Part shown: one piece after another, positions 3,750-55,667 of the stretch
Layout: each line of letters opens with the position of its first letter
How positions within the stretch are numbered: position 1 is the stretch's first letter
Assembly: GCF_009914755.1 (NCBI RefSeq)
Contig: NC_060928.1
Source of the DNA: the human T2T-CHM13v2.0 reference genome, Homo sapiens
Reading direction: 5' to 3' (one strand)
Length of the DNA: 64,000 nt
Program-made: the position numbers and the translations under genes
The notes under the pieces: generated by a model
The model's input: only the letters and a program-made list of their open reading frames with translations
Databases searched by the model: none
Told to the model about the DNA's origin: nothing

Positions 3750-4920
3750 GCATGTCTTAAAATTTCTTGCCCATTTTTCTTTGTTATACAGTGTTCTCTA
3801 ATTGTCGAGTTCTCAGATTTCTTTATTTATGTGGAATATAAGTTCTTTATCAGACATTTGATATGAAAATATTATTTTCCAATATATGGCTTGTCAATTT
3901 ATCTTAAAAGTAACTTTTGAAAAGCAGATGTTTTTAATTTTGACATAATTTAATACATCAATTTGTTCTTTTGTTTCTTGCTTTTGGTGTTACATCCAAA
4001 TGTCTTTACCTCACCCAAAGTCATAAAGGTTTTCTCCTTCGTTTTCTTGTAGAAGTGTTTCTGTTCTAGGTTTTATATTTATAGGATACATTTTGAGTTG
4101 ATTTTTGTATATGGTGTGAGATATAGATAATTTTTTTACATTTATTAAAAACATCTTCCTTTCCCTGCTGAATTGCTTTATCGAAAATCAGTTGACTGTA
4201 TATGTGTGGCTCTATTGCTGGATTGTCTATTATGGCCCATCAATTTACTTGTCAGTCTTAACAACTATACTACCCTGCCTTGACTTTGGTAGCTGTATAA
4301 TATGTCTTTAAATCAGGTATTATTCCTTCAATTTTGTCATTTTTCAAAGTTAACTTGGCTATTCTAGTTCTTTTGCATTCCACTTGAAGTTTAAAATTAT
4401 TTTGGCAATTTATTTTAAAAATTCATGCTGTGAATTTTATTGGTATGGTAGTGAATCTGTAGGTTAGTTTGGGGGAAGAGTTTGACCTCTTCACAATATT
4501 GAGTCTTCCAACCCATGACAATAATAGACATCTACATTCGTTTAGGTCTTTAATTTCTCTCAACAATGTTTTGTAGATTTCAAGGTACAGGTCTTGTGTA
4601 TTTTTTGTCATATTTATCCCTAAGTATCTAATAATTTAAATGCTATTGCAAATAATATTTTTAAAGATTTCAATTTACAATAGTTTGCTTTTAGTGTACA
4701 GAAATACATTTGGTTTTTATATATTGAGCTTACATCCTGCAATCTTGCTAAATTCACTTCTTAGTCTTAGTAGCTTTTTGGTAGATTCCATCATATTTTC
4801 TACATAGATAATCATGTCATTTGTGCATAAAATCCACTTTTTTGAATCTTTTCCAATCGAGATGCTTTTATTTGTTTTTCTTGCTTTATTGCACTGGCTA
4901 GAACCTTCAATGAAATGTCA
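3750..4920 (-). mobile_element. Old L1 (L1M-type) ORF2/3' fragment
   Basis: ORF 4423..4611(-) gives YKTLLREIKDLN...SWVGRLNIVK...PIK (L1 ORF2-like) and 4812..5021(-) gives LKVLASAIKQEKQIK. Confidence 0.85.
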
Positions 4921-7050: not shown

Positions 7051-7419
7051 TTACCTTGAATATTATCTGCCTTAATATTAATATTAATGGTTTTACATTA
7101 TTAACTTAATTCTCACAACCTTTCTGTGGTGGACATCCTATTATTACCTCTATTTAGATAAGAAAGGGGTGGCTAAGAAACTTGCCTGTGGTCATCCTTC
7201 TCTCTGGCAAAGCCAGCTATTTTGAATTTCTGAATGGTTTATCCTCTGCGTGTTTAAATGTACTATTTTCTTTCCTAGGACTGCTTCAACTCTCTGTATC
7301 TCACTGGGAAACATCTAGTCACCATTCAAAACCAGTTTCAACTACCTCCTCCCCTGGGAAGCATTTTCTAATACACCCAGGCAGAAATGATCCCTCCCTA
7401 CCCTGAACTACAGTGGCAG

Positions 7420-11673: not shown

Positions 11674-12559
11674 CAAGACTTGATTTTTTTTTTATTTTTA
11701 TTTTTTGAGACGTATGCCATATACCTAGAGGAAAAGTACCATTTTAACAACCATCTAGAATTTCACTGTATGACAATATCTTGCTCTATTCCTCTGCACC
11801 CTTCTTTCCCATTATCTCAAGATAATCACTTTCAAATATGTTAAATAATCCTCCTGATATTTACCTCCATCTTTTTATATAATGGTCTTCTATTGCTATT
11901 GACGGCTCATTAATATTACAGTTTATCTATTGATCTCATTATTGTTGAAGACTTAATGCTTAGCCATACCATTTCTCCCTCGCATTTCCCATAACGTCCC
12001 AATATAAGTGTATGGCTACATTGGACATATCAATATAAGACATTATAACTATATAAAATAGGCATTCATTAAATAAATTAACTGTTACTCTAGAGCAGTG
12101 CTTTTGAAAGTGTCCTCTGGGGACCCTGAGACCCTTTCAAGGGATCCATGCAGTCAAAACTAATGATAATTCTTTGTTTTTTATTTTAACCAAATTTGGT
12201 TAAATTTGGTTAGAGTGTTTCATTGAAATCAACTTAAGCTGGGATCTTAGTTTCTACTGTTTCTCCAAAGTCACTTGATAAGTGCCTTTGATTCAGAAAT
12301 TTGGATGAGGAGACACTCTAGGGAAGACTGAAGATGTAGGCTATGTGGAAACCAGGAGATTATTTTTCTTACAGAAATAAATTCTTGAGCTTAGTCTTTT
12401 TCAAAAGACTCGAGCCTACCTATTAAAGGTGTCTGGAGATACCTTTATGACAATGAAATATCTTTATGACAATGAGTCTTTGGAGCACGCACCTTCTTCA
12501 GGAGCTGAGTGGCTGAAGTCATACTGAAGATCAGTGCCAGCCAGCCCTTTTTGGCCAGT

Positions 12560-13101
12560 GTACCTTGGGAAAGGAATATTTATCTAGGCTGCTGGGATCA
12601 TCTTCCACATTTAAGGCATACAGTTGCACAAATTTGTCTGTGGCTGTCACAGGGAGCAGTGGTCCAAGGAGGACCAGAGGCTCCTAGACATATCTGTTGG
12701 GCCTGAGGCTAAGAATCCCACAATGAACTACAAACAGAAGCCACAGTTGTTCAAGGTTGCTCAGTGCCAGAAAACTAAGGTGAATCAGGTGCATCAGGCA
12801 TCTAAATTCCAGCACTCAAAAGACTGTCTGTAGCAGTTGGGGCCAAGTAGGTTTCTCCTCCTTCATTGAAATGGTACGCTTTGGTGCTCCTGGTGTCAGC
12901 CACTGCTGAGTTTTTCACTTCTGCTTCTTCCATTTCAAGGTTCTTGAACCAAATAGTTATCACTGGATCATCAAGGTGGAGGGTTGATGCTGCATAGCAA
13001 TCTGTGTACACGGTCTTTTGGAACACACATTTCAACACTCTAAGCTGTTCCAGGGTAAAACCTGGATGGCTTCAATGTGCACAGCTTGGTTTTGCTGACA
13101 T
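12560..13101 (-). pseudogene. Processed (intronless) LEUTX-like PRD-class K50 homeobox pseudogene
   Basis: Minus-strand conceptual translation with stops (*) and frameshifts (/): MSAKPSCAH*SHPGFTLEQLRVLKCVFQKTVYTDCYAASTLHLDDPVITIWFKN/LKWKKQK*KTQQWLTPGAPKRTISMKEEKP/...SAGI*...SSLWDS*PQAQQICLGASGPPWTTAPCD/TDKFVQLYALNVEDDPSSLDKYSFP. Collinear with recalled human LEUTX (LASKLQLDLSVVKIWFKNQRAKWKRQ...SSWDSQSYDIEQICLGASNPPW...DEFVKIYDLPGEDDTSSLNQYLFP). Confidence 0.85.
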
Positions 13102-13349
13102 GAGATTGTTTGGGAATGCTACAGTTCAATCAGCTGGGTCACGATAGCCACGCTGTAATGTCTCTGTCTACTCTGTGTCCTTTTAGTTTTTTGTATCTTT
13201 GAATTCTAAATAAGGTTATATTTTGAAGTGGGAGGGGGGATTAAACAGCGTTGAAAACCAGTTGTAATCTCAAAGACACTTTGAACGAAAATTCTAGAAC
13301 CATCAAAATGCTAAAAAGCTGAAATTAACTTATAGTGTAAACATACTAA

Positions 13350-54640: not shown

Positions 54641-55667
54641 AGGATTTTATGAATGACTATCCTATAAAACTTTCAGATAAACAAACCATTCTTATATTAT
54701 TCACATGTAGAGTTTAATTCTTCTCACTGCTGCCCTCAATGGACATGAGCAGCCTTCTCTGGGTCACGTAATTCACACGAACATGCATACATATTTTATG
54801 AAGTAACTTCTGCTTTTATAAAAGCAAAGCAAAACATAACAAGTATTGCGCAGTGAAAATCTTCATTTGCTCTCATACAGAATCTAAACAGCTTAAATGA
54901 TTAGGTATAATATGAAAATGTACAAATATATTTTTTTGTTTGAAATTGTCTCATTTATGCACACTAGCTTGGATATTCCTATAATTCTTTTTATGTAAGG
55001 TTATTTTGAAAATATATGCTGTTGAGTTAAAAAGAGCAAGAACGCTGCCACATAGCTAGAAAATATCCACATGTTGAAACCTTTCGGTATATGTTTATCA
55101 GTAAAGTTAATGTGGCCCCCTTCCCTACAGGCTCTTGCAACCCCACTGATACGTCCCTGACCTGTTTCTGTGTCCTTTGAGTCTTCAATTACCCTGCTGA
55201 GTCAAACAATTGGAGAACAAATTAAAGCCAACTGCAGAGAATGTTATTTTCTGATACAAAAATCTGACCTTAAAGAACTCAAGCCTTGAATATCTTTCTG
55301 TCAGGATGCCAGCAAATTTGCATTGAAAAGTCTAACATTTCACACAGTCTCACTCTTAATTCCCCCACTATTACTGTCATAACTAGAATGAGTGCAAGAC
55401 TCAACTGAGTCAGCCCCTTTACCAGGATAAATCATTATTCAGTTTAAAGGAAGGGGATATCTAATTGTACTTGGTAACAGCTTTCAAACCCATGTTTACA
55501 TCTGCATTATTCTTTTCATACCCACCTTTTCTCCTTTTATATCCAATCAGAAAAAGAACAGTGTAAATAAATGTTAAGTTTTGAGGGTAGGTGTCAAACA
55601 CGCACCTAACTCACTGCAAAAAGAACTATATATGGATGACATCAAGCCTTTCTCTACAGTGACTGAC

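What the first reader, a model, noticed from the sequence alone, without database searches (positions are those of the whole stretch)
12560..13101. Hidden full-length LEUTX-like homeobox retrocopy inside a MARCHF1 intron
Seen: joining three minus-strand frames from ATG 13101 gives a PRD-like homeodomain (FTLEQLRVLKCVFQKTVY...ASTLHLDDPVITIWFKN; WFKN at 12951-12940, K50). A KWKKQ linker follows, then SSLWDS*PQAQQICLGASGPPW and DKFVQLYALNVEDDPSSLDKYSFP. There are several stops (first TGA 13074-13072), about three frameshifts and an in-frame loss of about 5 codons in helix 2. Established (recalled): LEUTX is a fast-evolving eutherian ETCHbox gene (CRX-derived, with ARGFX, DPRX and TPRX) expressed at embryonic genome activation. 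It has this C-terminal Leutx domain and an intron between homeodomain codons 46/47, whereas VIT-IWFKN is contiguous here. Inference: this is an old processed pseudogene, a molecular fossil of ancestral LEUTX or of a lost paralog, made in germline or cleavage-stage cells. It starts with ATG, whereas I recall human LEUTX uses a GTG start. The ORF track shows only a 78-aa fragment, so pipelines could miss it. I cannot tell whether it is already annotated.
Basis: partly seen in the sequence, partly recalled or inferred. Interest (0 to 1): 0.85.

Follow-up and report, generated by a model that had tools for sequence, protein, structure and literature searches.

The report
Old dead LEUTX retrocopy in MARCHF1
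This is a real but long-dead, intron-less copy of the early-embryo homeobox gene LEUTX sitting inside a MARCHF1 intron; a human chromosome 4 LEUTX retrocopy is already listed in print, so it is ordinary.

Summary
On the minus strand, window about 13180 to about 12250 is a full-length, spliced copy of the LEUTX mRNA. It has a 5'UTR, the ATG at 13101, a K50 paired-like homeodomain, the C-terminal Leutx motif and a 3'UTR. Both LEUTX introns are missing exactly at their junctions. The copy is dead: six in-frame stops, three frameshifts, a 12-nt deletion in helix 2 and loss of homeodomain R53. Substitutions fall evenly on the three codon positions. It aligns collinearly with horse LEUTX at 88 of 176 residues, over aa 1-186 of 189. 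It groups with LEUTX and not ARGFX in a rooted tree. It is very old: K2P is about 0.56 to human LEUTX, and it branches deep, outside every sampled order-level LEUTX clade.

It is not new. Lewin et al. 2021 (Table S3b) list one human LEUTX retrocopy, on chromosome 4, and Maeso et al. 2016 score human LEUTX retrocopies as present. RefSeq does not annotate it.

A second full-length LEUTX retrocopy on chrX is not in that table. The two copies are sisters and share a nonsense codon, which leaves open a common, already disabled source.

The parts
13102..13180 (-). 5'UTR-equivalent of the LEUTX mRNA
   Evidence: The CAGCTGAT(T/C)GAAC block matches LEUTX exon 1. The distal part, 13178-13154, is homologous to the chrX copy (0 of 500 shuffles reach the score). 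It is not demonstrably homologous to human exon 1 (220 of 500). The 60 nt further upstream are not shared (349 of 500).
12531..13101 (-). Disabled LEUTX coding region. It runs from the ATG at 13101 to the last aligned residue at 12564. The present frame closes at the stop 12533-12531.
   Evidence: A frameshift-aware alignment to horse LEUTX gives 88 of 176 identities over aa 1-186 of 189, with 6 stops and 3 frameshifts.
12922..13080 (-). Paired-like K50 homeobox. It has a 12-nt deletion in helix 2 (near 12994) and a 5-nt deletion (near 12941) that removes Q52-R53-(A/V)54.
   Evidence: Pfam PF00046 scores 24.4 bits against a cut-off of 22.9. The best solved relative is the CRX homeodomain, with a 4-residue gap. 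The indel list is and the codon table.
12952..12957 (-). Seamless join of LEUTX exons 2 and 3, at homeodomain codons 46|47 (ACT|ATT)
   Evidence: On chr19 these codons are separated by an intron of about 1.0 kb (...GTAGTAAAG|gt ... ag|ATCTGGTTC). They are contiguous here and in the chrX copy.
13092..13097 (-). Seamless join of LEUTX exons 1 and 2, 7 nt after the ATG
   Evidence: On chr19, ATGTTTG|GTAAGT lies about 5.6 kb upstream of cag|AAGGGCC. The sequence is contiguous here.
12564..12730 (-). C-terminal Leutx-domain motifs (SSLWDS*P..QQICLGASGPPW and DKFVQLYALNVEDDPSSLDKYSFPK), split by a +4 frameshift near 12649
   Evidence: tblastn with horse LEUTX aa 159-186 gives 68% identity in the second frame, joint E 1.45e-23. 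See also the alignments.
12250..12530 (-). 3'UTR-equivalent, including a 19-nt tandem duplication at 12436-12473
   Evidence: blastn matches the LEUTX 3'UTR. The three-way alignment runs up to the position of the LEUTX AATAAA.
12168..12192 (-). A-rich stretch that may be a decayed poly(A) tail (uncertain)
   Evidence: Seen in the sequence. The 3' end could not be fixed by alignment, and no flanking direct repeat was found.

Best explanation
A mature, fully spliced LEUTX mRNA was reverse-transcribed and inserted into what is now a MARCHF1 intron, on the same strand as MARCHF1. The source cells must have been germline or pre-implantation cells. By inference the machinery was L1. The insertion dates to around or before the radiation of boreoeutherian mammals. 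The copy had no promoter or selective value and has decayed neutrally ever since, so today it is a non-functional processed pseudogene. Shown here: the identity with LEUTX, the loss of both introns, the mRNA-limited homology, the disabling lesions, and substitutions spread evenly over the three codon positions. Inferred: the L1 mechanism, the cell type of origin and the date.
For: LEUTX gene structure:
- I recovered it from chr19. The spliced exons translate to the 198-aa database LEUTX, P0001, which matched the exon-3 query at 100% identity.
- Both exon joins are seamless in the window.

Identity with LEUTX:
- The alignment to horse LEUTX is collinear over aa 1-186 of 189, with 88 of 176 identities.
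- With horse LEUTX as query against the whole genome, the three best of 242 matches are LEUTX exon 3, this locus and a chrX copy.
- In the ARGFX-rooted tree, LEUTX plus the retrocopies form a clade with 100/100 support.

Decay:
- There are 6 stops, 3 frameshifts, a 12-nt helix-2 deletion and loss of R53.
- Differences from the chrX copy per codon position are 0.375, 0.288 and 0.295, so there is no third-position excess. CpG observed/expected is 0.13, against 0.29 in LEUTX mRNA.

Age:
- K2P is 0.565 to human LEUTX and 0.44 to the chrX copy.
- In the unrooted tree the copy lies outside the Laurasiatheria clade (99/92), the anthropoid clade (100/100) and the strepsirrhine clade (92/92).

Other points:
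- The interval is not among the masked repeat stretches the hub lists (stretches of 100 bases or more).
- Lewin 2021 and Katayama 2018 state that ETCHbox/LEUTX retrocopies are common and imply germline or early-embryo expression (passages seen).
Against: - No target-site duplication was found: 5 direct-repeat families were reported and none flanks the element.
- No clear poly(A) tail survives, only an A-rich stretch, and the 3' end could not be fixed.
- blastn did not detect the exon 1-2 part against chr19. That homology rests on protein-level and motif-level alignment.
- The date rests on neutral rates that I recall, not on orthologous loci, which these tools cannot reach.
- Expression or regulatory use was not tested.
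Confidence: 0.93

Rival explanations
1. The chr4 copy and the chrX copy do not come independently from the functional LEUTX gene. They share a common source that was already diverged or disabled. That source would be either a transcribed LEUTX paralogue or pseudogene that has since been lost, or one retrocopy re-transcribed and retroposed a second time. This refines the best explanation and does not replace it.
For: - The two copies are sisters with a shared stem of 0.25-0.30 changes per column in three trees. Support is 100/98, 100/97 after masking 26 CpG-type cells and 99/97 with the ARGFX outgroup.
- They share TAG at the same codon (window 12711-12709).
- They share W/stop and H at homeodomain arginines 3 and 5, plus AGC, CTG and TGG codons that human LEUTX lacks.
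- At columns with a consensus of at least 50%, 13 of the 30 columns where both copies differ from it show the same residue.
- Both copies have the same 5' end.
Against: - The stem could be real LEUTX evolution if both copies predate the boreoeutherian ancestor, because the deep nodes are unresolved.
- By my rough estimate, about 0.3 shared Q-to-stop changes are expected by chance.
- Parallel CpG decay explains the changes at arginine codons.
- Long-branch attraction between two neutrally decaying rows is possible.
- No flanking homology links the two loci.
- Several of the 'shared' states also occur in human, colugo or sifaka LEUTX.
Confidence: 0.35
2. The element is a DNA-level (segmental) duplicate of the LEUTX locus, not a retrocopy.
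For: None specific. Tandem LEUTX duplication is frequent in other mammals (Lewin 2021 and Maeso 2016 passages).
Against: Both introns, about 5.6 kb and about 1.0 kb on chr19, are absent exactly at the splice junctions. The homology is confined to the mRNA. The element lies on a different chromosome from LEUTX.
Confidence: 0.01
3. The homeodomain-like reading is a chance ORF or part of an interspersed repeat.
For: The individual C-terminal ORF pieces hit no Pfam family. The homeodomain ORF alone finds only weak matches in the genome outside itself (E 0.83 and 9.7).
Against: The Pfam hit is above the curated cut-off. The genome-wide E-value with horse LEUTX is 5.2e-16. The 741-base DNA search found only three places in the genome: this locus, chrX and LEUTX on chr19. 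The hub's list of masked stretches does not include this interval.
Confidence: 0.005
4. The element has been co-opted, as a coding retrogene, a non-coding RNA or an intronic regulatory element of MARCHF1.
For: It lies in sense orientation inside MARCHF1. Nothing else points this way.
Against: It has six stops and three frameshifts. Substitutions are even across codon positions and CpG is depleted. RefSeq lists no feature here, and its only functional element in the window is at 55185-55234 (hub table).
Confidence: 0.03

Closest known systems
Human LEUTX (chr19q13.2), the parent gene family
   Same: The architecture is collinear: a short N-terminus starting at the same ATG, a K50 paired-like homeodomain, a Q-rich linker, the C-terminal ICLGAS..PPW and FV..Y.L..EDD.SSL..Y.FP motifs, and 5' and 3' UTR homology.
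   Different: The copy has no introns and a broken frame. It is only 40% identical to human LEUTX at aligned residues. It has F (TTC), not L, at homeodomain position 20, as do the non-catarrhine LEUTX rows I looked at.
The human chromosome 4 LEUTX retrocopy in Lewin et al. 2021, J Mol Evol (PMC8208926), Table S3b. Human 'Leutx retrocopies: YES' also appears in a supplementary table of Maeso et al. 2016 (PMC4904359).
   Same: It has the same parent gene, the same chromosome and the same class (processed pseudogene). My genome-wide searches find only one LEUTX-like copy on chr4, so this is almost certainly that entry.
   Different: The table gives a chromosome only. In what I could read there were no coordinates, host gene, anatomy or age. 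RefSeq for T2T-CHM13 has no pseudogene row here (hub table).
Second LEUTX processed pseudogene on chrX (G000:C23, about 54518580-54519470, minus strand)
   Same: It is a full-length spliced copy with the same 5' end and both exon joins seamless. It has six stops. It is the sister of the chr4 copy in all three trees.
   Different: Its helix 2 is intact in length. It is more decayed at the protein level (71 of 181 identities to horse LEUTX). Its homeodomain ORF falls below the Pfam cut-off (19.5 against 22.9 bits). It is not listed under LEUTX in Lewin's Table S3b.
Other ETCHbox processed pseudogenes (DPRXP1-7, the ARGFX retrocopies on chr5 and chr17, and the TPRX and PARGFX retrocopies)
   Same: They have the same origin: retroposed mRNAs of CRX-derived homeobox genes expressed in the early embryo or germline, dispersed around the genome.
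   Different: Their parent genes differ. This copy clusters with LEUTX and not ARGFX.

Membership tests
LEUTX family (ETCHbox, PRD class homeobox) | Paired-like homeodomain with lysine at position 50 | tested here: met
   Pfam PF00046 scores 24.4 bits, above the 22.9 cut-off. WFKN lies at 12951-12940. The best solved relatives are the CRX, ALX4, GSC and OTX2 homeodomains.
LEUTX family (ETCHbox, PRD class homeobox) | C-terminal Leutx domain, collinear with the homeodomain | tested here: met
   The single collinear path to horse LEUTX covers aa 1-186 of 189. The last 28 residues are 68% identical. No Pfam model exists for this domain, since only PF00046 is found on P0001.
LEUTX family (ETCHbox, PRD class homeobox) | Groups with LEUTX rather than with other ETCHbox genes | tested here: met
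   In the ARGFX-rooted tree, the 30 LEUTX rows plus both retrocopies form a clade at 100/100 (8 long rows were dropped beforehand). DPRX, TPRX and CRX were not included in any tree.
LEUTX family (ETCHbox, PRD class homeobox) | Intact reading frame, i.e. a functional member | tested here: not met
   Six stops, three frameshifts, loss of R53 and a 4-codon helix-2 deletion. It is a pseudogene of the family, not a working member.
Processed (retrotransposed) pseudogene | Parental introns absent exactly at the exon junctions | tested here: met
   The exon 1/2 and exon 2/3 joins are both seamless. The introns are present on chr19.
Processed (retrotransposed) pseudogene | Homology limited to the mature transcript, at a locus unlinked to the parent | tested here: met
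   Homology runs from about 13180 to about 12250 only. The copy is on chr4 and the parent on chr19.
Processed (retrotransposed) pseudogene | 3' poly(A) tract | tested here: inconclusive
   There is only an A-rich stretch at about 12192-12168, and the 3' end is not resolved.
Processed (retrotransposed) pseudogene | Flanking target-site duplication | tested here: inconclusive
   None of the 5 direct-repeat families reported flanks the element. At roughly 20% decay per copy, a duplication of about 15 nt would probably not be recognisable.

The most novel reading that the evidence does not exclude
The chr4 and chrX elements may be twin fossils of a single extinct source, not two separate snapshots of working LEUTX. 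The source would be a LEUTX paralogue or an already disabled copy that was still transcribed in the germline or early embryo of a stem boreoeutherian (or earlier) mammal. Alternatively, one retrocopy was itself retroposed. The twins share a stem of 0.25-0.30 changes per column, a TAG at the same codon and the same ruined DNA-contacting arginines. If this reading is right, they record a lost ETCHbox locus and an early state of this fast-evolving embryonic-genome-activation factor.
Probability: 0.35. Interest if true: 0.35.

Novelty: already known. Interest (0 to 1): 0.17.

Why it matters
It matters little beyond annotation. The copy confirms that LEUTX mRNA was present in heritable (germline or cleavage-stage) cells very early in placental evolution. 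It also confirms that the tiny first exon (ATG plus 4 nt), found late in human LEUTX, is ancient, because both retrocopies carry it. Together with the chrX copy it gives two slowly decaying records of an old LEUTX sequence. These could help ancestral reconstruction of a gene whose orthologues are only about 40-60% identical between orders. Practically, RefSeq has no pseudogene row here, and I did not find the chrX copy in the ETCHbox retrocopy table I could read, so both deserve annotation.

Tried and rejected
- **Weak first search.** Searching the genome with the homeodomain ORF alone missed LEUTX, giving only weak hits on chrX and chr2. DNA searches and the horse LEUTX query worked.
- **False exon 1.** A 10-nt match at position 7218 of my joined chr19 stretch (L009 plus L008) looked like exon 1. 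It reads ATGTTGAAATG with no splice donor, so I dropped it. The true exon 1 is at position 4686 of that stretch.
- **Off-by-one.** My first three-way alignment began exon 2 one base late, which gave a spurious 1-nt gap. This was corrected.
- **Target-site duplication and poly(A).** An apparent A-rich similarity between the 5' flank and the 3' A-rich stretch was not picked up by the repeat finder. The upstream flanks of chr4 and chrX are not significantly alike (349 of 500 shuffles). I treat this as unproven.
- **A CRX-like 'D.YA' in helix 2.** Each residue is one nucleotide away from the horse LEUTX state, and the motif sits beside the deletion. I judged it coincidence.
- **Rooting and dating by tree.** The deep nodes stayed unresolved with and without ARGFX. 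No row named as afrotherian or xenarthran LEUTX was among the 113 hits.
- **Searches for prior mention.** 'LEUTXP1' returned 0 papers. In the LEUTX with MARCHF1/MARCH1 search, the 10 listed of 34 papers contained no LEUTX. 'LEUTX' with 'processed pseudogene' returned 4 papers, none describing this locus in what the listing shows.
- The PDF supplement of Lewin 2021 could not be read either. An alignment query on the window's own genome was not accepted.
- **No-op.** One search was an empty script.

Full report
**What is in the sequence**

The ATG is at 13101-13099, the first TGA at 13074-13072 and WFKN at 12951-12940. The stop-to-stop ORF 12802-13071(-) is 89 aa. Without any repair it hits Pfam Homeodomain at E 2.6e-5 and 24.4 bits, above the curated 22.9. 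The two C-terminal ORF pieces hit no Pfam family in the same call. Against solved structures, 25 sequences match at E <= 1. The best is the CRX homeodomain (E 0.0021), followed by ALX4, an engrailed fusion chain, GSC and OTX2. Each of the three alignments printed carries a four-residue gap in helix 2.

**Finding the parent gene**

The window lies in a searchable whole genome. A 741-base DNA query (window 12440-13180, minus) found three places. These were itself, a chrX locus (65% identity over query 39-703, E 1.1e-28) and a chr19 locus (65% over 227-613, E 1.2e-9).

The chr19 match is a 145-aa open frame. It starts IWFKNQRAKWKRQ and carries the ICLGAS..PPW and DEFV...EDD.SSL motifs. The search for homologous proteins identified it as human LEUTX at 100% identity (P0001, 198 aa).

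I then located exon 2 by tblastn. Its sequence context is cag|AAGGGCC ... GTAGTAAAG|gt. Exon 1 ends ...ACACC ATG TTT G|GTAAGT, about 5.6 kb upstream. The three exons spliced together translate to the 198 aa of P0001.

Two conclusions follow:
- It starts at an ATG in a tiny first exon. The recalled GTG start is not supported.

**Anatomy of the window copy**

In the three-way alignment the window sequence runs without interruption across both LEUTX exon junctions. Homology starts in the 5'UTR. A CAGCTGAT(T/C)GAAC block is shared with LEUTX exon 1. The chr4 and chrX copies also share a further 25 nt or so, up to about 13178 (0 of 500 shuffles reach the score). The next 60 nt upstream are not shared (349 of 500).

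Homology continues through the 3'UTR to about 12250, opposite the LEUTX AATAAA. The exact 3' end, a poly(A) tail and a target-site duplication could not be established. Only an A-rich stretch at about 12192-12168 remains.

A frameshift-aware alignment to horse LEUTX (P0016) gives 88 of 176 identities over aa 1-186 of 189. It shows these lesions:
- Stops at 13074-72, 12917-15, 12804-02, 12777-75, 12753-51 and 12711-09.
- Frameshifts near 12939, 12847 and 12645. Against human LEUTX DNA these are indels of -5, -1 and +4 nt.
- In-frame losses of 12, 3, 3 and 3 nt.

The 12-nt loss removes four codons of helix 2. The 5-nt loss removes Q52-R53-(A/V)54. The 'KWKKQ' that follows is therefore the end of helix 3 and not a linker. 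Arginines 3 and 5 of the N-terminal arm now read stop and H.

**It is LEUTX, and it is dead**

I ran tblastn with 72 proteins from the LEUTX profile search (mostly LEUTX, with a few ARGFX and other homeobox rows). Of these, 63 hit the chr4 stretch and 57 hit the chrX stretch at E <= 1e-3.

With horse LEUTX as the query against the whole genome there were 242 matches. The top three were LEUTX exon 3 (E 3.5e-39), this locus (E 5.2e-16, aa 1-162, five stops inside) and chrX (E 4.0e-10). Nearly all the other listed matches cover only the homeodomain part of the query, among them long tandem arrays on chr4 and chr10. Two cover aa 52-179 and 54-179, on chr5 and chr3, which I take to be an ARGFX retrocopy and ARGFX itself. 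That assignment rests on Lewin's table for chr5 and on recall for chr3.

In a tree rooted with two ARGFX proteins, 30 LEUTX rows plus both retrocopies form a clade at 100/100. Eight long rows had been dropped first: three chinchilla rows, squirrel, a second Prolemur row, one Otolemur row, Myotis and Talpa.

Between the chr4 and chrX copies, differences per codon position are 69/184, 53/184 and 54/183. There is no third-position excess. CpG observed/expected is 0.13 and 0.11 in the two copies, against 0.29 in LEUTX mRNA. This is the pattern expected of a decaying pseudogene.

**Age**

K2P distances over about 890 aligned sites are 0.44 (chr4-chrX), 0.565 (chr4-LEUTX) and 0.56 (chrX-LEUTX). That puts about 0.22 substitutions per site on each retrocopy branch. 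From memory, the neutral path from human back to the boreoeutherian or placental ancestor is roughly 0.15-0.2. The copies would then be on the order of 90-100 Myr old. This calibration is recalled, not computed.

The protein comparisons agree. The chr4 copy is 49-51% identical to aye-aye, colugo and horse LEUTX but only 40% identical to human LEUTX. It is 94/170 identical to the majority consensus of the 38 LEUTX rows.

In the 40-row tree it lies outside Laurasiatheria (99/92), anthropoids (100/100) and strepsirrhines (92/92). Its exact deep position is unresolved.

**The chrX twin and the open question**

The chrX element (G000:C23, about 54519431-54518886 for the coding part, minus strand) is a second full-length LEUTX retrocopy. 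Both of its exon joins are seamless. It has 71 of 181 identities to horse LEUTX, six stops and one or two frameshifts. Its homeodomain ORF scores 19.5 bits, below the Pfam cut-off.

The two copies are sisters with a shared stem of 0.30 (100/98). After I masked 26 cells that could reflect parallel CpG decay, the stem was 0.245 (100/97). With the ARGFX outgroup it was 0.30 (99/97).

They also share:
- TAG at the same codon.
- TGA/TGG and CAT/CAC at two homeodomain arginine codons.
- AGC, CTG and TGG codons that human LEUTX lacks.

Among columns with a consensus of at least 50%, both copies match it in 44, only chrX differs in 25, only chr4 differs in 20, both differ differently in 17 and both differ identically in 13.

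Three readings remain:
- Both copies were made from functional LEUTX before the boreoeutherian ancestor. The stem is then real LEUTX evolution, and the shared disabling changes are parallel.
- A common source was already diverged or disabled, either as a lost paralogue or as a retrocopy of a retrocopy.
- Long-branch or neutral-decay artefact.

I cannot separate these without mammalian genomes.

**What is already known**

- Holland et al. 2007 listed LEUTX as a single gene with no pseudogenes in the passages and table rows I saw. They place DPRXP6 and DPRXP7 at Xp11.4 and Xq23.
- Zhong and Holland 2011 then thought LEUTX was primate-specific (passages).
- A supplementary table of Maeso et al. 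2016 scores human 'Leutx retrocopies: YES'. Their text says retrocopies were used to curate gene models.
- Katayama et al. 2018 mention independent reverse-transcribed Leutx pseudogenes in several species, without an exhaustive search (passages).
- Lewin et al. 2021 state that every sampled species has at least one ETCHbox retrocopy. Their Table S3b gives the human LEUTX retrogene location as chromosome '4' only.
- Lewin et al. 2023 excluded intronless LEUTX copies from analysis (passage).

My searches find a single LEUTX-like copy on chr4, so the window element is almost certainly the tabulated one. I saw no coordinates, host gene or anatomy in print. 'LEUTXP1' occurs in 0 papers of the library. 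RefSeq has no row for it (hub table). The chrX copy is absent from Table S3b.

**Verdict**

The object is an ordinary, already-recorded kind of thing: an ancient processed pseudogene of an ETCHbox gene. Interest is low. The only mildly new points are the exact anatomy, the unlisted chrX twin and the hint of a shared disabled source.

Noticed in passing
G000:C23, about 54518580-54519470 (minus); loci L007 and L010: A second full-length LEUTX processed pseudogene lies on chrX. Both exon joins are seamless, and it has six stops and one or two frameshifts. It is not listed under LEUTX in Lewin 2021 Table S3b. On recalled band positions (about 54.5 Mb should be Xp11.2), it should not lie at the DPRXP6 or DPRXP7 cytobands, Xp11.4 and Xq23.
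   Followed up: yes
window 12709-12711, and L010 (chrX 54519035-54519037): The chr4 and chrX copies carry TAG at the same LEUTX codon (Q in human and horse). They also share several non-CpG codon states. This hints at a common source that was already disabled.
   Followed up: partly
window 12436-12473: A 19-nt tandem duplication (89% identical units) lies in the 3'UTR-equivalent of the retrocopy. It falls within the 27-nt insertion relative to LEUTX seen in the alignment.
   Followed up: no
window 13019-13021; chrX copy; LEUTX proteins P0001-P0016: Homeodomain position 20, which gives LEUTX ('leucine twenty') its name, is F (TTC) in both retrocopies. It is also F in the Aotus, sifaka, colugo and horse LEUTX rows I looked at. 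L appears in the human and macaque rows. Leucine therefore looks derived in catarrhines.
   Followed up: partly
G000:C3:124305922-124306290 and G000:C5:123193017-123193403: Horse LEUTX aa 52-179 aligns at 33% identity to open frames on chr3 and chr5, outside the homeodomain. I take these to be the last exon of ARGFX and an ARGFX retrocopy. This suggests C-terminal similarity between ETCHbox paralogues.
   Followed up: no
L009, about position 7218 (chr19, LEUTX intron 1): A stretch reading ...CAAATCTCATGTTGAAATGTGATCCCCAGTGTTGGAGGTGGG... mimicked the retrocopies' ATG context. I recall it as repeat-like, and it has no splice donor. It was a false lead for exon 1.
   Followed up: partly
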